A DNA stretch of 64,000 nucleotides from an uncultured Holophagae bacterium (GCA_963844865.1 CAWJPY010000008.1:48959-112958), one strand, 5' to 3'; counted from the stretch's first letter, positions 40,713-49,599 are shown. Translations and numbers: made by a program. Notes: generated by a model not told the origin, from the sequence alone.

Positions 40713-42710
40713 ATGACAGGACACATCTTCCGCGTTGGCTCGATTGTCGTGGCGCTCTGGGCGGTCCTCGCGATTCCGGCGACGGCCGAAGAGGATCCGG
40801 ACACGATGGAACGGCTGCGGCTGTTGGAGATCATGAGGACTGCGAGGCCTGCGCCAAACCCGCCTTCCGTCGAGGGCTTCTCCCCGCTGGAGACCGACTC
40901 ACCCGAGCAGCGGGCCACCATCCAGTACGATCCCGCCTCGGGGACCGAGACGGTGCTGCCCGCCTCCGCGACGGATGCGGGAGAGCAACCTCTGTGGGAC
41001 GGTCCCGGGGCGGGGGCGGGTGTGGGATTCGAAGACCCGGAGGGCTGGGACCTCACCGTCGAGGGCACGACGCCCACGCCGCCCACTGCACATCCGGACA
41101 ACACCGCCTCCCCGTGGAACACCATCCACAAGCTGCTGATGCGGTTCAACGTCGGCGGTACGGACTACTACTACGTGTGCAGCGGCTGGGCGGCGGGCTC
41201 GTTCCACGTGGTCACGGCCGGTCACTGCGTCTACAGCTGGGACCCCAACGGCGACGGCAACACCAGCGACAGGACCTGGGCGAGCGAGATCTGGGTCTGG
41301 GCCGGTCAGGGCGACGTGGTGGAGCCGGTGGGGGACCCCAGCATCGCTCCGGACCGGCCCTTCGGAGAGGCGAAGGGGGTCCTCTTCCGGAGCTACACGG
41401 GCTGGACGGACTCCCACAACTTCTCCCATGACTGGGGCGTGATCACCCTGAACCGCCGCGACGGCGACCACACCGGCTGGATGGGCCGCGAGTCGGACTG
41501 CGCGAACTCCCTGAACTTCAGCGGCTATCCCACCGAGACCCCGTACGTCCCGTCGGGGTCGGTGGTGCAGTACTACGGATACGACCCGGACAACGTGGCG
41601 ATCTGTTGGCCCTACACCATCGACCTGGACGCGTACATCTACGGTGGGCACAGCGGTGGCCCCTCGTGGCGCTACGAAGGATCGACCGGGAACAGGTACG
41701 TGGAGGGCATCCACTCCACCTCGAACCGCGTGGGGTCGGCCACCGACACCCGACTGACGAGCGCCAAGCGCTCGAGTCTCGACGGCTGGATGGCCGACGA
41801 CGAAAGCGAACGCCCACCTGTGTCGAGGCCCGACCTCATCGAGTACGACTTCGACGGCAACAACCGCAAGGATCTGCTGACCAATGCGGCGGCCCAGGGC
41901 GAAACGGTCCAGGTCGAGTACAACCTGTTGAACTCCGGCTTCGCCGCCACGGGGACGTTCACCGTCAGCTTCTACCTGTCGACGAACAGAATCATCAGTA
42001 CGTCCGACTCCCTGATCGGAACCAGGAGTCACAGCCTGTCCGCCTGGTCGTTCCTCAACCCCACCACCTCCCTCACCGTGCCGGTGTCGGTCCCGACGGG
42101 CAGCTACTACCTGGGTTGGATCGCCAGCGGTGGCGCCTCCGAGTACACGACCTCCAACAATGCGGTGGTCATCGGCGACGAGACCCTGACGGTCACCCCC
42201 CAGCGGCTCCTGACGGTGACCACGCCCAACGGCGGGGAGAGCTGGCGGATCGGCGACGTGGAGCCCATCACGTGGACGTCCACCAACGTCGGCTCCACCG
42301 TGACGATCGAGCTCAGCCGGAACCTCGGCGGGAGCTGGTCGACGCTCGCGGCGAGCACGCCGAACGACGGCCTGTTCCAGTGGACCGTGACCCCCGACGC
42401 GTCGGCGTCGTGCCTGGTGCGCATCGGCTCGACCGCCTACCCGGCGGTGGCCGACACCAGCAACGGCAGCTTCGCCATCTCCACCTCCTGCGGCTACCCG
42501 GAGGATGTGGTGTTGAGCCACCAGACGGTCAACGGGCCGCTGGCGGTCACGGCCTGCAGCTCGATCACCGCCGGCGACGGATACGTGCTCTCCGGGGGCG
42601 CTGATGTCAGCCTGACGGCGGGGCACGTGGTCGTGCTCGCGAACGGTCTCGCGGTGGAGGCCGGAGCCGCCCTGGTGGCGGCGATCAACGACACGCTCGC
42701 CGGACCGTGA
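40713..42710 (+). CDS. Secreted V8-like (S1) serine protease with CARDB-like, Ig-like and C-terminal beta-stack domains
   Basis: Signal peptide; VVTAGHC, HDWGVI, GGHSGGP triad; TVTTPNGGESW domain. Confidence 0.88.
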   Translation: MTGHIFRVGSIVVALWAVLAIPATAEEDPDTMERLRLLEIMRTARPAPNPPSVEGFSPLETDSPEQRATIQYDPASGTETVLPASATDAGEQPLWDGPGAGAGVGFEDPEGWDLTVEGTTPTPPTAHPDNTASPWNTIHKLLMRFNVGGTDYYYVCSGWAAGSFHVVTAGHCVYSWDPNGDGNTSDRTWASEIWVWAGQGDVVEPVGDPSIAPDRPFGEAKGVLFRSYTGWTDSHNFSHDWGVITLNRRDGDHTGWMGRESDCANSLNFSGYPTETPYVPSGSVVQYYGYDPDNVAICWPYTIDLDAYIYGGHSGGPSWRYEGSTGNRYVEGIHSTSNRVGSATDTRLTSAKRSSLDGWMADDESERPPVSRPDLIEYDFDGNNRKDLLTNAAAQGETVQVEYNLLNSGFAATGTFTVSFYLSTNRIISTSDSLIGTRSHSLSAWSFLNPTTSLTVPVSVPTGSYYLGWIASGGASEYTTSNNAVVIGDETLTVTPQRLLTVTTPNGGESWRIGDVEPITWTSTNVGSTVTIELSRNLGGSWSTLAASTPNDGLFQWTVTPDASASCLVRIGSTAYPAVADTSNGSFAISTSCGYPEDVVLSHQTVNGPLAVTACSSITAGDGYVLSGGADVSLTAGHVVVLANGLAVEAGAALVAAINDTLAGP

Positions 42711-42855
42711 ATGCGCCTTTGCGGTCGCTCTCGGGTGGGCGGGCGGCTCCCCGTCTCCGCGACCCCGCGTTCCTGGCCGACGACACTGAACCTGGCCGAC
42801 GACGACCGCCGCGGATCGCTGTCGCTGACACCGCCCTGACGGGACCTGCCCATGC

Positions 42856-43609
42856 TCAGGAGGCGTGCGGCCCCCAGGTCCAGTACAGGCCCAGGTACGC
42901 GATGGTGTGACTCTCGCCGGCGATCGAGTGCCCCCCGCTGAAGAGAAGGCTGAAGCCGGGGGTGAAGTTGAGGTAGCCGCCGACGTTGGCGACGGTGGAG
43001 CCGCGCCCGTCCACCGTGTCGGCGCCCTCCGAGAAGACCTCCCCACCCAGGGTGAGCTTCTCGTTGAGCTCGCGCTGCAGCAGTGCCCCCCCGAAGGCGT
43101 GGTCGCGCTGGCCGGCAGCGTGATTGATGACCCAGCCGGCACCCGCGTCCACGGTCCACGGCCCCCAGCTCTTCTCTGCCCACAACGGGAGGCGGAACCA
43201 GACCCGGCCGTTGCCCAGTCCCCGCCCCGCGTCGCCCGTGGGCAGCTCCACGAATGGGAAGATGCCCACCTGCGGCCGCCGCTTCGTCTCGTTCAGCAGC
43301 CGCAGCTTGACCCCGGTCTCCACGTCCCCGAGGCCCGAGCCGCGTCCTGCCACCCGCCGGCAGGCTCCACGCCCAGGGCACCACCAGGTGGAGCTGGAGC
43401 TCCGGCGCCGCCCCCAGGTTGAACTCGGCGGCCGGGCCCTGGATGTCGGTCCCGCCCGGACCGTGGTCGGAGGTGGAGAAGAGGTAGGCCTCCCAGTGAT
43501 GGAGCGGCACCGGCACGGGGTCGTCGGTGAGGAACGGCGGTCCGGCGACGGCCGCCCCTCCGGGCACGAGCACGGCTGCCAGCAGGAGAATGGGCACGGG
43601 ATGTCTCAT
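42856..43609 (-). CDS. Outer-membrane beta-barrel (phenol_MetA_deg/transporter-like; frameshift near 43370)
   Basis: Signal peptide; GPPFLTDDPVP, GLGDVETGVK, FPFVELPTG. Confidence 0.7.
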
Positions 43610-43755
43610 GATTCGCTGCGGCGGGCTCGAGGAGGGTCGGGTCTCACTTCGATGACAGACAACAAGCGACGCGTCCCCGTCATGCCGATGGACGAAGTTC
43701 GCTCTGCCCTCCACCACCCGCCACCACCAGGGCCTGCGTACCGAAGCAGGCGACG

Positions 43756-46572
43756 TCAGATCGCGGCGGCGCGCCACACCAGGGCCAGGGTCAGGGCACC
43801 GTAGAGGAGGAAGGCGACCGACCACAGCCAGCGCCGGCGTGGCTCCCCGGATGGTGGCTGCTTCCGGGCGTGGCTGAGGGTGAGGAGGGCCAGCGCGCCG
43901 GCCAGGAGCACGGCCAGGGTCTGCAGCAACGGCAGGGCCGCCGTGTCCAGCCCCAGGGGCGCCCCGGGCAGGGGGCGGTCGATGGCGATCCGGGCGTCGG
44001 CCAGCACCCCGACGTTGCCGAGCTGGTCGGCCATCAGCGCACCCCAGCCCAGGATCATGAGCGCGAACATCCGGCGCACCGTCAGGGCCCCTCCCTCGGC
44101 GCCGGACCGCGCCATGAGCAGTCGGTGCAAGGCCAGGCCGAGGCCGCCGGCCGCGGCCACGATGATCGCCAGGGGCAACGGCCGGGCGAGGACGGGGAAG
44201 GCCCGGGGCAGGAGCAGCGCCGGCGCCATCAGAGAGACCGCCAACGCAAAGGCGGCCACTCCGGAGCTCCGCTCGTCCAACCTCGAGACCGCCACCAGGG
44301 GCGGCCGCACCTGGAGGCTCACCGAACCGTGGGGGCAGCTGAGCAGACAGTCCAGGCAGAGCTTGCACTGGTGAGCCTGGCTGGACTCCAGGGGGTGGTG
44401 GAAGACGGTGCAGCCCGGCACCGTCTCCGTGCCGCGGAAGCAGTCATGGGAGCGGCACGATGAGGCGCACACCTGGCGGCGGGCCGTGAGCTGGAGCGGC
44501 GAGGCCGGGGCCAGCGCCACCGCGAGCCGCCCCAGAGGACACAGGTGGCGACACCAGACCTCGCGCGCGTACACCACGCACGCCGCCACCGAGGCCACCA
44601 CCAACGCGATCAGGAGGAACGACGTGGCGCGGGGGTGCGCGCCCATGTGGAAGGCGCGCTCCGACCACACGACGAGCGCGAAACCGACCACCGACAGGGC
44701 GGGCCCGAAGCGCACGATCCACGCCGGCTGGGGGCGCTCGAGCCCGAACCGGCCCTGGACCGCGCGCCCGGCGCCGGACAGGGGGCACACCGTGCACCAG
44801 AGGGGGCCGGCGAAGAGGAAGAGGGCGAACACGAGGGGCTCCCAGGCCCACCACACCAGACCGTTGGCGGCCCTTGCCGGCGCGCTGGCCGGTAGCGCGA
44901 GGCCGAGGGCCACCACGGCCGTGAAGCCGACGCCCGTCACCCAGCGCAGCAGCCGCACCCCCCGCCGCCGCACCAGCCAGTCCACCAGGCCGCTGGACGT
45001 GACGTCGACGCCGGCCGGGACCTCCTCCTCGCCGCGCCCGCTGAAGATGTGCTCGGCGCGGATGACACCGTCGGGCGCGCAGCGCGCCGCCAGGGTGACC
45101 ACGTCGGCGAGCTCGGCCACGTTGCGGTGCCGGTAGTCGAACGCGAGGAGCGCGTGGCGGCCGCTGTCGCTGAGCCGCGGCGGCTCGTCCCCGAGACGCT
45201 CCAGCATGGACTCGGCCAGGGGGATGATGTCGCGGGGGCGCTCGGCCAGGGGCGGGATGTGGATCAGCTCGCTGATGAAGCACTCCATGAGCCGGCGCTG
45301 GATGAGGGGTGCGCCATCGGGACCACGGATGAGGGTGCGGGCGGTGGCCACCACGCGGGTGTCCGGGAACGTCCCCGGCTGCCTGGCTGCTGCTTCTTCC
45401 AGGTAGGCCGCCAGGTCCTCCTGGACCGCCGCCGGCAGGGTGTCCACGTTGCGCAGCACCAGAGTGCCGCCATGGGCCAGGTGGACGCCGCCGTTCCTTC
45501 TCGGCGCCCCCCGGGCGTCATCGTCATGGGAGCCCAGGATGAGCTCACCGGCCCGCTCGGGGCCGAGCCGGGCGCAGTCGACGGCGATCACCGGCCCGGC
45601 GGCACGGGCCGAGACCTCGTGCAACCGCCGCGCGGCCAGGGTCTTGCCGGTACCTGGCTCGCCGACGATGAGCACCGGGCCGCGCAGCCCGGCGCAACGC
45701 GCGATGCGGGCATTCACCGACCGCATCCTGGCCGATGTGGCGAGCAGGTCTCGGGGCTCCTCCTCGCCCTGCACCAGGCGCGCGATCACGTCCGTACCGT
45801 GGAGGAGGTCGAGGGCGTCGGTGGTTGCGTAGTGGAGGTGGCGGGCCACCCCCCCGAGCAGCTTGTCGCGCAGGGAAGGCGACTCGCCGAGCGCGTGGGA
45901 CAGGGCCGACGCCGGGTAGCGCAGCACCCGGCTCTGGGTGACGGCCACCGCGTCCACCGCGGCGCCCTTCGGGGAGAGCACCGACTCGGCGGCAAACATG
46001 GCCCCCGCGCCGAGGGATGCAAGAGGTCGCCGGCGCGCGTCGTCCTCCTGCAGCACGAGCGCCACCTCGCCGTCCAGCACCGCGTAGAAGGAGTCGTGGC
46101 GCTCGCCGCGGCGGATGATCACCTCCCCGGGCGCGAAGGCGATCTCCTCTCCCGCCGTGCGCAAGAAGCCCAGGGTGTCCACTCCGAGGAGCCCGCCCGA
46201 GCTGGAGATGTGCCCGGAGGCTCGTCTCGGCGCCACCGACTCCAGGACGAAGCTCACCTCGCCCAACCGGAGCTCCTGTCCCACCGCCAGCGGCGTCGGC
46301 GTCGTCACGTGGGCGCCGGCGACCGACACCTCGCCCTCCACTGCGTCCACGACGACCCCACTCTCGCCGGCGTGGACGACGGCGTGGAGGGGCCGGATGC
46401 TCGGGTGCTGGATGCGCAGGTCCGCCTCGGGTCCGCTGCCGATGCGGAGGCTCTCGCATCCGAAGGCGACGGGCTCGCGAAGCCCACCGGAGCTGGGCTG
46501 CAGCCGCCACCGCACGTCACGGGCCCTGGTCACCGGCTTGGCGCTCCCTTCTCGGCTGTCCCGTCCTTCCAT
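43756..46572 (-). CDS. FHA-like + cNMP-binding + degenerate sigma54-AAA + membrane polyferredoxin fusion
   Basis: Walker A GEPGTGKT; PPLAERPRDI; WCTVCPLSG, WCRHLCPLG, CASSCRSHDC, CKLCLDCLLSCP; multiple TM helices. Confidence 0.85.
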   Translation of the reverse strand: MEGRDSREGSAKPVTRARDVRWRLQPSSGGLREPVAFGCESLRIGSGPEADLRIQHPSIRPLHAVVHAGESGVVVDAVEGEVSVAGAHVTTPTPLAVGQELRLGEVSFVLESVAPRRASGHISSSGGLLGVDTLGFLRTAGEEIAFAPGEVIIRRGERHDSFYAVLDGEVALVLQEDDARRRPLASLGAGAMFAAESVLSPKGAAVDAVAVTQSRVLRYPASALSHALGESPSLRDKLLGGVARHLHYATTDALDLLHGTDVIARLVQGEEEPRDLLATSARMRSVNARIARCAGLRGPVLIVGEPGTGKTLAARRLHEVSARAAGPVIAVDCARLGPERAGELILGSHDDDARGAPRRNGGVHLAHGGTLVLRNVDTLPAAVQEDLAAYLEEAAARQPGTFPDTRVVATARTLIRGPDGAPLIQRRLMECFISELIHIPPLAERPRDIIPLAESMLERLGDEPPRLSDSGRHALLAFDYRHRNVAELADVVTLAARCAPDGVIRAEHIFSGRGEEEVPAGVDVTSSGLVDWLVRRRGVRLLRWVTGVGFTAVVALGLALPASAPARAANGLVWWAWEPLVFALFLFAGPLWCTVCPLSGAGRAVQGRFGLERPQPAWIVRFGPALSVVGFALVVWSERAFHMGAHPRATSFLLIALVVASVAACVVYAREVWCRHLCPLGRLAVALAPASPLQLTARRQVCASSCRSHDCFRGTETVPGCTVFHHPLESSQAHQCKLCLDCLLSCPHGSVSLQVRPPLVAVSRLDERSSGVAAFALAVSLMAPALLLPRAFPVLARPLPLAIIVAAAGGLGLALHRLLMARSGAEGGALTVRRMFALMILGWGALMADQLGNVGVLADARIAIDRPLPGAPLGLDTAALPLLQTLAVLLAGALALLTLSHARKQPPSGEPRRRWLWSVAFLLYGALTLALVWRAAAI

Positions 46573-46698
46573 TGTTCGACCCCGCTCCTCCTCCGTCAAC
46601 CCCTCTCCCCGAGGACCGGCCGAGCCATGCTTTCACGGTGAAATCTCATCCCTCCGCCAGACGCGGGGACGCGCTAGGATGAGAGAGCTGGAGACAGG

Positions 46699-49599
46699 AT
46701 GGTCGAGTCCGAAATCGGTCAGAAGATCGGCCACATCCGCATCGTGGAGGTCCTCGCGCGCGGAGGCATGGGTGACGTCTACGTGGGCGTGGACGAGACC
46801 CTCGAGAGGCGAGTGGCCGTCAAGGCGGTGCGCTCGGAGTTCCGCCTCGCCCCCGAGGCCAAGCAGCGCTTCCTCGCCGAGGCCCGGACCCTCTCCCAGC
46901 TCGACCACCCCAACATCTGTCAGGTGCACGACTTCCTCGAGGGCGACCACTGCGACTACCTGGTCCTGGAGCTGGTGGAGGGCTGCAGCCTGCGCGGGGC
47001 CATCGCCGACGGCCTCAAACCGGCCGAGGCCCTGGCCATCGCTCGCCAGCTCCTGGACGTCCTGGCGGCGGTGCACGAGCGCGGGGTGGTCCACCGCGAC
47101 CTGAAGCCGGACAACGTCATGGTCACCGCGACCAACCAGGTGAAGGTCCTGGACTTCGGCCTCGCCCGCTCGGCGACCGAGGAGGAGCCCGGAGCCCGCT
47201 CGGTCACGGTCGACGCCCTGGTCGGCACCCCGGCCGAGGGCTCGGTGCTGGTCAAGACGCGCCTGGGGACCGTGGTCGGCACCGCCGGCTACATGAGCCC
47301 CGAGCAGGCCCGGGGGGAGCCCGCAACCGCCGCCAGCGACGTCTACGCGGTAGGGCTCATCCTGCAGGAGCTGCTCACCGGCCGCCCAGCTTTCCCCCGC
47401 GAGCTGCCGCCGGCAGCGCTGGTGGAGATGGCGGCCACGGGGCAGTCACTCAGGGCCACCGGCCTCTCCCCGGATCTCGAGCTCTTCATCGAGCGGCTCA
47501 AGAGCCCGGCGCCGGCCGCCCGCCCGTCGGCCCAGGAGGCCGCGCGGGAGCTCGCCGAGATCCTGGCGCGGCCGCGCCGGCGCCGGCGCCGCGTGCTCGC
47601 CGCCTCCCTTGCAGCGCTCGTGCTGCTCGCCGCCGCCGTGCCGCTGTCCCTGTGGTGGCGGGAGCGCGCAAGGGCCGCGGCCCGCGCCTCCCTCGCCCAG
47701 CGCTTCGCGGCCGAGGCCCGGGACGCCGAGTGGCTGATGCGGGTCGCCCACATGCTCCCCCGCCACGACATCCGCCCAGCCAAGGCCGAGGTCCGCCAGC
47801 GCATCGCCGCCCTCCAGGAGGAGATGGAGCGGATCGGCGCCCTCGCCGCCGGCCCCGGCCACTACGCGGTGGGACGCGGCCTGCTCGCCCTGCGGGACTA
47901 CGCTCAGGCGCGTGCCCAGCTCGAGGTGGCGTGGCACGACGGGTACCAGACCCCCGAGGTGGCGTGTGCGCTCGGCACCGCTCTCGGCGGGCTCTACCGC
48001 CAGGAGCTGGAGCTGGCCGGGCGGATCACCGACCCTGCGCAGCGGGAGGCCCGGCGGACGGAGATCGCCCGCAGCCTGGGCCGGCCCGCCCTGGAGTACC
48101 AGCGCCTCGGGCGCGACGCGCGGCTCCTCCCCTCACAGTACGTGGCCGCTTTGATCGCCTTCCACGAGGAGCGCTTCGACGACGCCATCGCCCTGGCCAA
48201 AAAGGCCGCGGCGGCCGTGCCCTGGTTCTACGAGGCGAACCTGATCGCCGCTCGGGGCGAGCTGGAGCTCGGGGAGCGTCGCTACCGTAGGGGCGAGCTC
48301 GACTCCGCCTTCGAGCACTACCAGCGCGCCCTCGACATCCTCGCCGAGGTGAGGAAGGTCGCCCCCAGCGACGCCAGCGGCCACGCCTTCACCGCCAGCG
48401 TCTGGAACGCCATCGCCTTGGTGCGCCTGTACGGCCGCAAGGGTGATGTCGAGGAGGCCGCCACCCACGCCCTGGAGGCCTGCGACGACGCCGAAGCGGT
48501 GGACGCCGAGTCCCTGGCCGCCATCACCGCCCGCTCCACGGCCCACCTGGCGATTGCGGTGGCGCAGGCTCGCCGGAAGCAGCCAAACGCTGACGAGCTG
48601 CGGCTGGCGGAGACCGCGGCCGAGCGCGCCGTCAAGCTCGGTCCGGACTCGACCGTGGCCAACTTCAACCTCGGCTTCCTCCGCGAGCACACGGGGGATC
48701 TGGAGGGCGCCGCGGCCGACTATCGACGAGCTCTCGAGCTGGATCCCTCCTCCGCCCGGATCCACAACAACCTCGGCAACGTCTACCGTCAGCTCGGCAG
48801 GTTCGACGAGGCGACGGCCGAGCTCGAGAAGGCGATCGCCCTCGAGCCGCACCTCATGGTCGCCTACGAGAACCTGGCCAACGTGCTGCTGTACAACACG
48901 GGCCGCATCCGCGAGGGCATCCAGGTTTGCCGCCGCCAGCTCGCGGTCAACGACGACGCCATGTGGGGCCACCTGAAGCTGGCTCAGGCGCTGATGTTCC
49001 TGGGCGACCTGGAGCAGGCTCAGGGCGAGGCGGAGCGCGCACGGGCGATCACCGGGGACGACCCGGACATGCTGTGGACGCTGGTCAGCATCCTGCGGCT
49101 GAAGGGAGCCTACCGGGAGGCTCTGGAACCGCTCCAGCGGTACCTCAAGGTCACCGGCCATGCCACCTGGGGGTACTACCTGCGTGGAGTGATCTACGAC
49201 GACCTCGGAGATACCGCTACGGCCCGGCGCGACTTCGAGACCTTCCTGCGCAAGCAGCGGGAGAGCCTCGAGACAACCCCATCGAGCGACCTGCCGCGCT
49301 ACGGGGTGGCCCTGGGGCTGGCGCGCCTGGGCCGCATCGACGAGGCTCTCGCCGAGGGCCGCAGGGCCCGCGACGCGTGCTCGCGCGGCGAGGATGTGTG
49401 CAGCTTCGACTACGCGCGGGTCCTCGCCGTCTGCGGCCACGAGGACGAGGCGATCACCGAGCTCCGTCGAGCCTTCGAAGCCGGCTACCGCGACCCCATC
49501 TGGACCCGTGCGAACCAGGACTTCGAGAGCCTTGCCGGCGACGAGCGCTTCAACGCGCTGCTGGCAGAGATGACCGCCGCGCCCGACTCCTCCCGCTGA
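46699..49599 (+). CDS. Hanks-type Ser/Thr kinase with TM helix and TPR repeats
   Basis: VAVK, HRDLKPDN, DFG, GTAGYMSPEQ; TM segment near aa 300; TPR-like repeats (HNNLGNVYRQLGRFDEA). Confidence 0.95.
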   Translation: MVESEIGQKIGHIRIVEVLARGGMGDVYVGVDETLERRVAVKAVRSEFRLAPEAKQRFLAEARTLSQLDHPNICQVHDFLEGDHCDYLVLELVEGCSLRGAIADGLKPAEALAIARQLLDVLAAVHERGVVHRDLKPDNVMVTATNQVKVLDFGLARSATEEEPGARSVTVDALVGTPAEGSVLVKTRLGTVVGTAGYMSPEQARGEPATAASDVYAVGLILQELLTGRPAFPRELPPAALVEMAATGQSLRATGLSPDLELFIERLKSPAPAARPSAQEAARELAEILARPRRRRRRVLAASLAALVLLAAAVPLSLWWRERARAAARASLAQRFAAEARDAEWLMRVAHMLPRHDIRPAKAEVRQRIAALQEEMERIGALAAGPGHYAVGRGLLALRDYAQARAQLEVAWHDGYQTPEVACALGTALGGLYRQELELAGRITDPAQREARRTEIARSLGRPALEYQRLGRDARLLPSQYVAALIAFHEERFDDAIALAKKAAAAVPWFYEANLIAARGELELGERRYRRGELDSAFEHYQRALDILAEVRKVAPSDASGHAFTASVWNAIALVRLYGRKGDVEEAATHALEACDDAEAVDAESLAAITARSTAHLAIAVAQARRKQPNADELRLAETAAERAVKLGPDSTVANFNLGFLREHTGDLEGAAADYRRALELDPSSARIHNNLGNVYRQLGRFDEATAELEKAIALEPHLMVAYENLANVLLYNTGRIREGIQVCRRQLAVNDDAMWGHLKLAQALMFLGDLEQAQGEAERARAITGDDPDMLWTLVSILRLKGAYREALEPLQRYLKVTGHATWGYYLRGVIYDDLGDTATARRDFETFLRKQRESLETTPSSDLPRYGVALGLARLGRIDEALAEGRRARDACSRGEDVCSFDYARVLAVCGHEDEAITELRRAFEAGYRDPIWTRANQDFESLAGDERFNALLAEMTAAPDSSR

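What the first reader, a model, noticed from the sequence alone, without database searches (positions are those of the whole stretch)
43756..46572. Pseudo-enhancer-binding AAA+ fused to FHA, cNMP and a membrane polyferredoxin
Seen: Walker A is intact, but Walker B reads TLVLRN instead of hhhhDE, the GAFTGA loop is absent and there is no C-terminal HTH. Instead the protein ends in a NapH/NosR-like membrane region with two CxxxCP motifs and a ferredoxin-type Cys cluster. The FHA lacks the canonical GR and SxxH residues. Known: GAFTGA and the Walker B acidic pair are required for sigma54 activation. Inference: a repurposed nucleotide-binding scaffold that links cyclic-nucleotide and membrane redox signals by an unknown output.
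Basis: partly seen in the sequence, partly recalled or inferred. Interest (0 to 1): 0.65.

Follow-up and report, generated by a model that had tools for sequence, protein, structure and literature searches.

The report
Dead sigma54-type ATPase on membrane polyferredoxin
This gene encodes an intact, widely conserved but almost unstudied membrane iron-sulfur protein; its 'sigma-54 transcription activator' part has lost every residue needed to burn ATP or touch sigma-54, so it most likely works as a signal-controlled membrane redox protein and not as the transcription factor databases call it.

Summary
ORF 43756-46599 (-) encodes FHA, a cNMP-type domain, a sigma54-type AAA+ domain with lid, and a nine-helix NapH-like membrane module with two [4Fe-4S] motifs. 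Walker A is intact. Walker B reads LVLRN, GAFTGA, the arginine fingers and the sensor II arginine are missing, and there is no HTH.

Two corrections apply. The first membrane motif is CxxCP, not CxxxCP. The cNMP domain has also lost its phosphate-binding Glu, Arg and Thr.

Neither refuting condition is met. All 150-plus homologues inspected lack DE and GAFTGA. The architecture recurs in 326 genome loci across more than ten phyla, including closed genomes. dN/dS against an 86%-identical relative is 0.26.

Family members occur in a closed Armatimonadota chromosome without rpoN and throughout cyanobacteria, so the function is sigma54-independent. N-terminal inputs are swapped between members, while the AAA+ and polyferredoxin core stays constant.

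Best reading: a FesM-like, signal-gated quinone-linked membrane redox module that uses a dead enhancer-binding-protein AAA+ domain as an assembly switch. The mechanism is inferred. This copy is an FHA-bearing variant that shares a conserved divergent gene pair with a Ser/Thr kinase.

The parts
43756..46599 (-). Whole ORF, 947 aa from TTG. Likely real start is ATG 46572 (M10) or GTG 46533 (V23).
   Evidence: The AlphaFold2 model has mean pLDDT 87.9.
46237..46509 (-). FHA-fold domain (residues 31-121) with a degenerate phosphothreonine pocket: IGS for GR, Arg for the SxxH Ser, NG loop deleted.
   Evidence: Pfam 21.3 bits. pLDDT is about 90-97. It is the fastest-evolving domain, with dN/dS 0.39.
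45880..46182 (-). cNMP-binding-type (CRP-like) beta-barrel domain (residues 140-240). Its phosphate-binding cassette reads FAAES..GAAVDA.
   Evidence: Pfam 55.9 bits. Alignment to M. tuberculosis CRP is. Clade comparison is. dN/dS is 0.15.
45745..45879 (-). Long linker helix (residues 241-285) joining the sensor domain to the AAA+ domain.
   Evidence: DSSP helix 241-276 in the model. The top Foldseek hit is the NtrC1 inactive-state dimer 1ny5 over 296 columns, more than the roughly 250 columns of the AAA+-only hits.
45025..45744 (-). Sigma54-activator-type AAA+ domain plus lid (residues 286-525). Walker A is intact. Walker B, the L1 GAFTGA loop, the R-fingers and the sensor II Arg are all replaced.
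45640..45663 (-). Walker A, GEPGTGKT.
   Evidence: In 107 relatives G313 and G316 are invariant, G318 is 106 of 107, and K319 is 96 K plus 11 R.
45442..45465 (-). Walker B-equivalent, TLVLRNVD, with Arg in place of Asp.
   Evidence: R383 is present in 98 of 107 relatives.
44530..44952 (-). TM1-TM4 of the NapH-like module (residues 550-690). CxxCP follows TM2 and CxxxCP follows TM4, both at the cytoplasmic face. W583, P588 and E647 at the outer face are invariant.
44275..44529 (-). Cytoplasmic ferredoxin-like domain (residues 691-775) with eight invariant Cys, which fits two [4Fe-4S] clusters.
   Evidence: It has the lowest dN/dS of all domains, 0.12.
43759..44274 (-). TM5-TM9 extension (residues 776-947), which E. 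coli NapH lacks.
   Evidence: The C-terminal module model has pLDDT 91 and pTM 0.90, and no fold match in the PDB.
46699..49599 (+). Divergently transcribed Ser/Thr protein kinase with TPR repeats, 100 bp upstream. It is a probable signalling partner.
   Evidence: Pfam. An orthologous kinase (61% identity over full length) sits in the same divergent arrangement next to the 59%-identical homologue P0004.

Best explanation
The gene encodes a functional member of a large, sigma54-independent family of membrane iron-sulfur proteins, probably the family of cyanobacterial FesM.

Shown:
- The C-terminal nine-helix module is a NapH-type polyferredoxin. It has two membrane-interface Cys pairs and two cytoplasmic four-Cys sets.
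- It is the most conserved part of the protein.
- The central domain descends from an enhancer-binding-protein AAA+ ATPase. It keeps only the P-loop and has lost Walker B, the R-fingers, the sensor II Arg, the sigma54-contact loop and the DNA-binding domain.
- N-terminal modules are interchangeable input domains: cNMP-type alone, FHA plus cNMP-type, FHA plus GAF, or receiver.

Inferred:
- The membrane module exchanges electrons with the quinone pool, as NapH does, and passes them to or from a cytoplasmic partner.
- The dead AAA+ domain binds nucleotide but does not hydrolyse it. With its long linker helix it acts as a dimer-to-ring assembly switch, as in NtrC1, and this switch sets the activity or arrangement of the membrane modules.
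- In this copy the cNMP pocket and the FHA phosphothreonine pocket are both degenerate. Control is therefore more likely to come through protein contacts, for example with the adjacent Ser/Thr kinase, and through nucleotide occupancy, than through cAMP.
For: Real and conserved.
- 144 close homologues share the architecture, and 326 genome loci in more than ten phyla carry it.
- 1,212 clusters at 50% identity match the membrane module, and nearly all of the best 150 carry it at the C-terminus of an 800-1000 aa protein.
- dN/dS is 0.26 overall and 0.12 for the Fe-S domain.
- The structure models are confident: pLDDT 87.9 for the whole protein and 91 for the membrane module.

Dead ATPase across the family. 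R383 occurs in 98 of 107 relatives and A495 in 101 of 107. No inspected member has GAFTGA or DE.

Sigma54-independent. A closed 4.66-Mb Armatimonadota chromosome carries a member but has neither the Sigma54_DBD nor the Sigma54_CBD domain. Cyanobacteria carry highly conserved members. Synechococcus elongatus, a control genome, gave no Sigma54_DBD hit.

NapH relationship. 44 of 46 members hit the NapH/MauN model. hhalign against E. coli NapH gives probability 97.8% and E 1.3e-12 over both Cys-Pro motifs and both Fe-S motifs.

The module behaves as an effector.
- Inputs vary around a constant core.
- In this genome the same module is fused to a CuA-type cupredoxin and sits beside a COX2-like and cytochrome c gene.

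Assembly-switch idea. The model has a 36-residue helix between the sensor domain and the AAA+ domain, and the best fold match is the NtrC1 inactive dimer 1ny5 over 296 columns.

Signalling context. A conserved divergent Ser/Thr kinase pair is present. Elsewhere, members sit next to CHASE2 cyclases, a PP2C phosphatase and histidine kinases.
Against: - No biochemical or genetic datum exists for this protein or its clade.
- The FesM sequence could not be obtained, so that link rests on architecture, on an earlier AI note and on my memory of the paper.
- No conserved redox partner gene lies next to family members. Dedicated respiratory modules such as NapGH or NosR usually have one.
- The family is patchy in its own class: 16 of 121 genomes.
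- Kinases lie within 10 kb in 14 of about 75 loci. That is no more than kinase density predicts (about 28 kinases in 4.7 Mb).
- The periplasmic loops are short, so no outer-face redox partner site is evident beyond three invariant residues.
- Some clades have also lost Walker A (GTEK). Nucleotide binding therefore cannot be essential to the whole family.
- The direction of information flow, Fe-S as effector or Fe-S as sensor, is not resolved by any result here.
Confidence: 0.45

Rival explanations
1. Redox sensor. The NapH-like Fe-S module is the input and reports the redox state of the quinone pool, or oxygen or NO. The dead AAA+, FHA and cNMP-type scaffold is the output. It would recruit or release protein partners such as the neighbouring Ser/Thr kinase or its substrates.
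For: No conserved redox partner gene lies nearby, whereas signalling genes recur as neighbours: kinase, cyclase, PP2C phosphatase and histidine kinase. The divergent kinase pair is conserved at about 60% identity. All three cytoplasmic domains are under purifying selection despite having lost their canonical pockets, as expected for interaction surfaces.
Against: The L1 loop region is variable and is not conserved in this copy. N-terminal modules are swapped like inputs. A protein built entirely of inputs with no recognisable output is unusual. The same membrane module sits in a plainly respiratory context in this genome. The target's FHA has lost its phosphothreonine-contact residues.
Confidence: 0.25
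2. Membrane-tethered poison subunit. The ATPase-dead AAA+ domain forms mixed rings with genuine enhancer-binding proteins (about 25 in this genome) and sequesters or inactivates them at the membrane in response to redox state.
For: The AAA+ fold and lid stay close to those of enhancer-binding proteins. The genome has rpoN and many such activators. That mixed rings of these activators can be inactivated by defective subunits is established knowledge, not tested here.
Against: Family members exist in genomes without sigma54: a closed Armatimonadota chromosome and cyanobacteria. The family-wide function therefore cannot depend on the sigma54 system.
Confidence: 0.04
3. A genuine, if unusual, sigma54-dependent transcription activator anchored in the membrane, as the source annotations say.
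For: It matches Pfam Sigma54_activat and NCBIfam NtrX, PspF and NifA models at E 1e-19 to 1e-24. NCBI and JGI both give it names of this kind.
Against: All scores lie far below the family cut-offs: 85 bits against 440-600. It has no GAFTGA, no Walker B acidic pair, no R-fingers, no sensor II Arg and no HTH. Homologues occur in genomes that lack sigma54.
Confidence: 0.02
4. A decaying pseudogene or an assembly chimera.
For: The FHA, cNMP and AAA+ domains all lack canonical residues. The FHA is more degenerate here than in most relatives. The genome is a 32-contig metagenome-assembled genome.
Against: The frame is uninterrupted for 947 codons with GC3 0.92. dN/dS is below 0.4 in every domain. 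The same substitutions are shared by more than 100 relatives. The architecture occurs in closed genomes.
Confidence: 0.01

Closest known systems
FesM of Synechococcus sp. PCC 7002 (Xu, Liu and Zhao 2005, Plant Physiol 138:1586; PMID 15980195)
   Same: [quoted passage not shown] Cyanobacterial proteins with this target's architecture are collinear with it: 25% identity over residues 197-767, E 5e-51.
   Different: The FesM sequence itself was not available, so identity with this family was not tested. The target has an extra FHA domain, a degenerate cNMP pocket, no downstream cysK and a non-phototrophic host. To my knowledge the dead AAA+ domain was not described in that paper.
Bacterial enhancer-binding proteins (PspF, NtrC1, FleQ, NifA; Pfam PF00158 plus PF25601)
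   Same: The AAA+ fold and lid match (Foldseek TM-score normalised to target 0.72-0.81). The P-loop is kept. The layout of N-terminal input, linker helix and AAA+ domain resembles the NtrC1 inactive dimer 1ny5.
   Different: It has no Walker B DE, GAFTGA, R-fingers, sensor II Arg or HTH. It carries a C-terminal membrane module. Family members occur in genomes without sigma54.
Sigma54-independent atypical enhancer-binding-protein relatives (VpsR, TyrR, Caulobacter NtrC, NtrX)
   Same: They share the AAA+ chassis without a working GAFTGA contact (for VpsR and Caulobacter NtrC). VpsR and NtrX appear among the fold matches.
   Different: All of those keep a DNA-binding HTH and act on transcription. 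This protein has no DNA-binding domain and is an integral membrane Fe-S protein.
NapH / MauN quinol dehydrogenase ferredoxin subunit (TIGR02163, PRK09477) and NosR
   Same: It has a TM-helix core with two Cys-Pro motifs at the cytoplasmic face, followed by two cytoplasmic [4Fe-4S] motifs. hhalign against E. coli NapH gives 97.8% probability, and 44 of 46 members hit the NapH model.
   Different: Scores lie far below the family cut-offs (18-19 bits for this protein against 213-234). The first motif is CxxCP. There are five extra helices. No NapG-like gene was seen among its neighbours. It lacks the periplasmic FMN-binding domain of NosR. It carries a roughly 540-residue cytoplasmic regulatory part.

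Membership tests
Bacterial enhancer-binding proteins (sigma54 activators) | AAA+ domain of the PF00158 type with its lid | tested here: met
   PF00158 at 70.7 bits, though only profile positions 2-127 of 168 are matched. Foldseek against PspF, NtrC1 and FleQ gives E about 1e-11.
Bacterial enhancer-binding proteins (sigma54 activators) | Walker B hhhhDE, arginine fingers and the sensor II arginine, all needed for ATP hydrolysis | tested here: not met
   PspF D107/E108 align to R383/N384, R162/R168 to Q434/C440, and R227 to A495. The substitutions are family-wide.
Bacterial enhancer-binding proteins (sigma54 activators) | GAFTGA L1 loop that contacts sigma54 | tested here: not met
   The position aligns to DDDARGA. 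No member among 107 close and 49 distant ones has the motif.
Bacterial enhancer-binding proteins (sigma54 activators) | C-terminal HTH DNA-binding domain | tested here: not met
   Pfam finds no HTH. The lid ends near residue 525 and TM1 begins near residue 553.
Bacterial enhancer-binding proteins (sigma54 activators) | Occurs only alongside sigma54 (rpoN) | tested here: not met
   Three of 25 family-bearing genomes lack Sigma54_DBD. One of them is a closed 4.66-Mb chromosome that also lacks Sigma54_CBD. Cyanobacterial members exist.
NapH/MauN polyferredoxin family | Membrane core with two Cys-x3-Cys-Pro motifs and two [4Fe-4S] motifs on the cytoplasmic side | tested here: inconclusive
   The homology is clear (hhalign 97.8%; 44 of 46 members hit the model). 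However, the first motif is CxxCP, and scores of 18-19 bits lie far below the 213-234 cut-offs. It is a relative at superfamily level, not a NapH.
NapH/MauN polyferredoxin family | Works with a periplasmic NapG-type ferredoxin and the Nap operon | tested here: not met
   No nap genes or NapG-like gene appear in the window or in about 75 related loci.
NosR | N-terminal periplasmic FMN-binding domain ahead of the polyferredoxin part | tested here: not met
   The N-terminal 540 residues are the cytoplasmic FHA, cNMP-type and AAA+ domains. The NosR match covers only the C-terminal Fe-S part, at E 1.8e-4.
Cyclic-nucleotide-binding (CNB) domains | Beta-barrel fold matching PF00027 | tested here: met
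   55.9 bits against a 27.5 cut-off. It aligns to CRP and PKA-R structures.
Cyclic-nucleotide-binding (CNB) domains | Phosphate-binding cassette FGE...P-R-[ST]-A that binds the cyclic phosphate | tested here: not met
   The target reads FAAES..GAAV. Glu, Arg and Thr are all replaced in the FHA-bearing clade. Distant members keep FGE..PRSA.
FHA domains | FHA beta-sandwich fold | tested here: met
   PF00498 at 21.3 bits against a 20.7 cut-off. The model is confident at pLDDT 88-97.
FHA domains | Phosphothreonine-contact residues: Arg of GR, Ser of SxxH and Asn of NG | tested here: not met
   The target has IGS, Arg at the Ser position, and the NG loop deleted. Most relatives keep SRxH and NG but also read GS. 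The roughly 1300-aa relatives in the same class keep all three.
FesM-like membrane Fe-S proteins | cNMP-type domain, multi-helix membrane part and two [4Fe-4S] motifs in one chain, homologous to the cyanobacterial proteins | tested here: met
   Collinear BLASTP match to the Pseudanabaena protein at E 5e-51. Cyanobacterial homologues carry the same Pfam set.
FesM-like membrane Fe-S proteins | Sequence relationship to FesM of Synechococcus sp. PCC 7002 itself | not testable with these tools
   The paper is not held, and no FesM-labelled sequence was recovered.

The most novel reading that the evidence does not exclude
The family is an unrecognised class of signal-gated membrane 'redox valves'. 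The enhancer-binding-protein chassis (input domain, linker helix, AAA+ ring) has been stripped of catalysis, sigma54 contact and DNA binding. It has been re-used as a nucleotide-occupied assembly switch that opens or closes electron flow between the quinone pool and cytoplasmic acceptors. In this FHA-bearing branch the switch would be set by a dedicated Ser/Thr kinase rather than by cyclic nucleotides. Eukaryote-like phosphosignalling would then act directly on respiratory electron flow.
Probability: 0.2. Interest if true: 0.8.

Novelty: new variant of a known kind. Interest (0 to 1): 0.55.

Why it matters
Annotation. Many members of this family are named 'sigma 54-interacting transcriptional regulator' or 'nitrogen assimilation regulatory protein' in public databases. 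The evidence here says they are membrane iron-sulfur proteins that cannot activate sigma54. Counts of enhancer-binding proteins and sigma54 regulon reconstructions that include them would be inflated.

Biology. The family shows a complete AAA+ transcription motor re-used as a non-catalytic module on a NapH-type electron-transfer protein, in phyla that include Acidobacteriota, Desulfobacterota, Nitrospirota, anammox Planctomycetota, Firmicutes and Cyanobacteria. If the FesM link holds, the only phenotype known for the family is loss of cyclic electron flow. The non-phototroph members would then point to a general, regulated route between the quinone pool and the cytoplasm.

This copy. It adds an FHA domain and a conserved kinase neighbour, which gives a concrete and testable pairing.

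Tried and rejected
- Conserved operon. Clustering about 970 neighbour proteins from 80 loci found no partner shared across the family. The co-directional hisD, gidB, leuB and prs-like genes in Desulfobulbales and the citrate synthase in Thermoanaerobaculia look like lineage synteny.
- Kinase enrichment. Kinases lie within 10 kb in 14 of about 75 loci. That is no more than chance, given about 28 kinases in this 4.7-Mb genome. Only the orthologous divergent pair in the target's subclade counts as evidence.
- Fold of the membrane module. The confident model (pTM 0.90) has no PDB match (best E 0.065, TM-score below 0.2). A phmmer search of the PDB with the same part also found nothing.
- Split-gene versions. 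The 430-540 aa hits in Holophagae genomes are overlapping frames, most simply frameshifts, and not separate soluble and membrane genes.
- Shared regulatory motif. The kinase-target intergenic regions of the window and L089 show nothing conserved beyond the kinase start.
- Literature. Nine full-text searches found no paper on this architecture. Kannan et al. 2007 list a CNB 'AAA_Atpase' subgroup with a variable cassette arginine, which may or may not be this family. The FesM paper could not be read.
- Host taxonomy. It was not determined. Relatives are labelled Thermoanaerobaculia or Acidobacteriota, plus one Chondromyces MAG.
Full report
**Observation.**
The window has 70% G+C. Of the many overlapping reading frames around the finding, only one has coding-type third-position G+C (0.92). 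It runs 43756-46632 between stop codons on the minus strand, and its first start codon gives the ORF 43756-46599. It encodes 947 residues from a TTG.

Pfam finds a marginal FHA domain, a clear cNMP-binding-type domain, a truncated match to the sigma-54 interaction domain with its lid, and a weak Fer4_5 match. It finds no HTH. NCBIfam matches sigma54 activators (NtrX, PspF, NifA and others) only at about 85 bits, against cut-offs of 440-600.

Alignment to PspF fixes the catalytic positions, and I verified the coordinates by translation.
- Walker A is GEPGTGKT.
- The Walker B acidic pair is R383-N384.
- GAFTGA corresponds to DDDARGA.
- The two arginine-finger positions are Q434 and C440.
- The sensor II arginine is A495.

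After the lid come nine hydrophobic helices. WCTVCP follows TM2 and WCRHLCPLG follows TM4, both at the cytoplasmic face. A cytoplasmic 85-residue domain with two four-cysteine sets lies between TM4 and TM5.

The first membrane motif is CxxCP, not CxxxCP.

**Not decay and not a chimera.**
A search of 5.8 billion proteins returned 144 homologues. More than 100 are full-length, share the architecture, and are 45-86% identical.

A scan of species-representative genomes returned 326 encoding loci. They include Acidobacteriota (Thermoanaerobaculia, Holophagae), Thermodesulfobacteriota (Desulfobulbales, Desulfomonile), Nitrospirota, anammox and other Planctomycetota, Armatimonadota, Elusimicrobia, Firmicutes and Dehalococcoidia. 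Some are closed genomes. The membrane part alone matches 1,212 clusters at 50% identity, and nearly all of the best 150 carry it at the C-terminus of an 800-1000 aa protein.

In 107 aligned relatives, Arg at the Walker B aspartate position occurs 98 times and Ala at the sensor II position 101 times. Walker A is conserved (G313 and G316 invariant, G318 in 106 of 107, K319 as 96 K plus 11 R), and no sequence has GAFTGA. In 49 more distant members from other phyla the same positions read R, K, H, E, S, A or Q followed by N, H or G. None has DE or GAFTGA, and a few clades have even lost the Walker A glycine (GTEK).

Against an 86%-identical relative, dN/dS is 0.26 overall:
- Fe-S domain 0.12
- cNMP-type domain 0.15
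- AAA+ domain 0.20
- FHA domain 0.39

AlphaFold2 gives a confident model with mean pLDDT 87.9.

**The sensor domains.**
The phosphate-binding cassette of cNMP-binding domains is FGE...P-R-[ST]-A. Aligned to Mycobacterium tuberculosis CRP, the target reads FAAES..GAAV, so the Glu, Arg and Thr are all replaced. Three states are seen across the family:
- The whole FHA-bearing clade reads FGAES..GAA.D.
- An FHA-less clade (Acidobacteriota, Planctomycetota, Thermodesulfobacteriota and Armatimonadota members) keeps FGE and Ser but has Val or Thr for Arg.
- Distant Desulfobulbales, Nitrospirota and Dehalococcoidia members keep a canonical FGE..PRSA.

The domain is nonetheless among the best conserved, so it is used for something other than canonical cAMP binding.

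The FHA domain shows a graded loss.
- Relatives of about 1300 aa in the same class have canonical IGR, SRSHA and GSxNG.
- The roughly 925-aa Thermoanaerobaculia-type proteins read GS for GR but keep SRxH and NG.
- The target and its two closest relatives have also replaced the serine and deleted the NG loop.

**Independence from sigma54.**
Of 25 family-bearing genomes, 22 have rpoN. One of the three that lack it is a closed 4.66-Mb Armatimonadota chromosome, which has neither the DNA-binding nor the core-binding domain of sigma54.

A tblastn search of plasmids found members in Pseudanabaena and Aulosira. The Pseudanabaena protein retrieves 1,844 hits; the 120 best listed are 67-99% identical, almost all of the named ones are cyanobacterial, and nearly all carry the same Pfam domains. 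It is collinear with the target over residues 197-767 (E 5e-51) and has the same dead motifs, LLLNN and GNLAEL. Cyanobacteria are generally held to lack sigma54. Consistent with that, the Synechococcus elongatus control gave no Sigma54_DBD hit.

**The membrane module.**
Forty-four of 46 diverse members hit the NapH/MauN model and 27 hit NosR, all far below the trusted cut-offs. A profile comparison with E. coli NapH gives 97.8% probability over both Cys-Pro motifs and both Fe-S motifs.

Twenty positions are invariant across phyla. Twelve are cysteines. Three others (W583, P588, E647) lie at the outer face of TM2 and TM3. A separate model of the module is very confident (pLDDT 91, pTM 0.90) but has no structural relative in the PDB.

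The host genome holds two further copies of the module.
- One is an FHA-less paralogue, 40% identical to the target.
- The other is a 649-aa protein in which the same nine-helix module (CMVCP, CRYLCP, CGLCMECIKACP) is fused to an N-terminal cupredoxin. That cupredoxin carries a CuA-type C-x3-C-x3-H-x2-M motif. The gene is followed by a COX2-like and cytochrome c gene, which is a plainly respiratory setting.

**Architecture logic.**
Around the constant AAA+ and polyferredoxin core, the N-terminal modules vary: cNMP-type alone, FHA plus cNMP-type, FHA plus GAF, or a receiver domain. This is how enhancer-binding proteins swap their inputs, and it places the membrane module in the position of the output domain. 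The model has a 36-residue helix between the sensor and the AAA+ domain, and its best fold match is the inactive-state NtrC1 dimer over 296 columns. That suggests, but does not show, a dimer-to-ring switch.

**Genomic context.**
No operon partner is conserved across the family. Signalling genes recur as neighbours:
- CHASE2 adenylate/guanylate cyclases sit immediately upstream in anammox bacteria.
- A PP2C phosphatase sits downstream in Desulfotruncus.
- Histidine kinases and Ser/Thr kinases appear in other loci.

The overall kinase frequency (14 of about 75 loci) is no more than chance, given about 28 kinases in this genome. In the target's subclade, however, the divergent kinase-TPR gene is orthologous (61% identity over its full length) next to the 59%-identical homologue, while the other neighbours differ. 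In the 86%-identical relative, a different kinase-TPR gene lies one gene away. Within its class the family is patchy: 16 of 121 high-quality genomes and 14 of 61 genera.

**Comparison with what is known.**
Nine full-text searches found no description of this architecture. After I had formed my own reading, earlier notes of this scan turned up. They report the same family in at least 16 other genomes and propose FesM of Synechococcus sp. PCC 7002 as the one studied member.

The FesM paper is not held. [quoted passage not shown] From memory, the paper also describes a cAMP-binding domain and about nine helices. I confirmed that cyanobacteria carry the family, but I could not obtain the FesM sequence, so this membership is untested.

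Known sigma54-independent relatives of enhancer-binding proteins (VpsR, Caulobacter NtrC, TyrR, NtrX) all keep a DNA-binding domain. This family does not.

**Verdict.**
It is shown with high confidence (about 0.9) that this is a real, selected member of a large family of membrane Fe-S proteins with a catalytically dead, sigma54-independent AAA+ domain, and that the family is mislabelled as transcription regulators.

The mechanism is inferred with moderate confidence (about 0.45). It is a NapH-type, quinone-linked electron-transfer module whose activity or arrangement is set by a non-hydrolysing AAA+ assembly switch under control of the N-terminal domains. The main rival (about 0.25) reverses the flow, with the Fe-S module as sensor and the scaffold as output.

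This copy is a variant with an added, degenerate FHA domain, a degenerate cNMP pocket and a conserved kinase neighbour.

Noticed in passing
L092:2423-4372 (-), = G000 contig C19, outside the window: A 649-aa protein in the same genome fuses a signal or TM segment and a cupredoxin with a CuA-type motif (HYRCSVTCGTLHPFM) to the same nine-helix polyferredoxin module (CMVCP, CRYLCP, CGLCMECIKACP). It is followed by a COX2-like and cytochrome c gene at L092:1471-2418. This looks like an undescribed CuA-polyferredoxin respiratory pair.
   Followed up: partly
L085:8046-10526 (+), = G000 contig C13: A second paralogue of 826 aa, 40% identical and without FHA. A kinase-TPR gene lies about 5 kb upstream. 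VWA, cation-efflux (CDF) and ZIP transporter genes follow it on the opposite strand.
   Followed up: partly
L090:2495-6132 and L091:2477-6168: Plasmid-borne cyanobacterial members (Pseudanabaena galeata pPg_03 and Aulosira laxa plasmid2) are each followed directly by a cysteine synthase gene. One is annotated 'nitrogen assimilation regulatory protein'.
   Followed up: partly
L093:3889-7863 (-) and L094:4316-8239 (-): Relatives in the same class have open frames of about 1300 aa. A stretch of roughly 350 residues with no Pfam hit precedes a fully canonical FHA domain (IGR, SRSHA, GSxNG). Part of that extension may be over-called in high-GC DNA.
   Followed up: no
L033, L036, L042, L047, L050, L055, L062 (Walker A column): In Desulfobulbales and Nitrospirota members the last Walker A glycine is replaced by Glu (GTEK, GTEG, GTEL). 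These copies have probably lost nucleotide binding as well as hydrolysis, yet they keep a canonical cNMP cassette.
   Followed up: no
L035, L052, L054 (anammox Planctomycetota): A CHASE2 adenylate/guanylate cyclase gene of about 750-800 aa lies immediately upstream and co-directional with the family member. In these loci the cNMP cassette reads FGE...PCCAT.
   Followed up: partly
window 42710-43756: Downstream of the target there is about 1 kb without a strong coding frame. A 165-aa minus-strand ORF (42856-43353) gives a weak match to the MetA-pathway outer-membrane barrel family (PF13557, 24.6 bits). It may be a longer gene with an unrecognised start, or a remnant.
   Followed up: no
L025:9662-12467 and L028: The Holophagae copies appear as two overlapping frames (502 aa and 530 aa), which is most simply a frameshift. 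The MFD isolate names suggest long-read assemblies, but that was not checked.
   Followed up: partly
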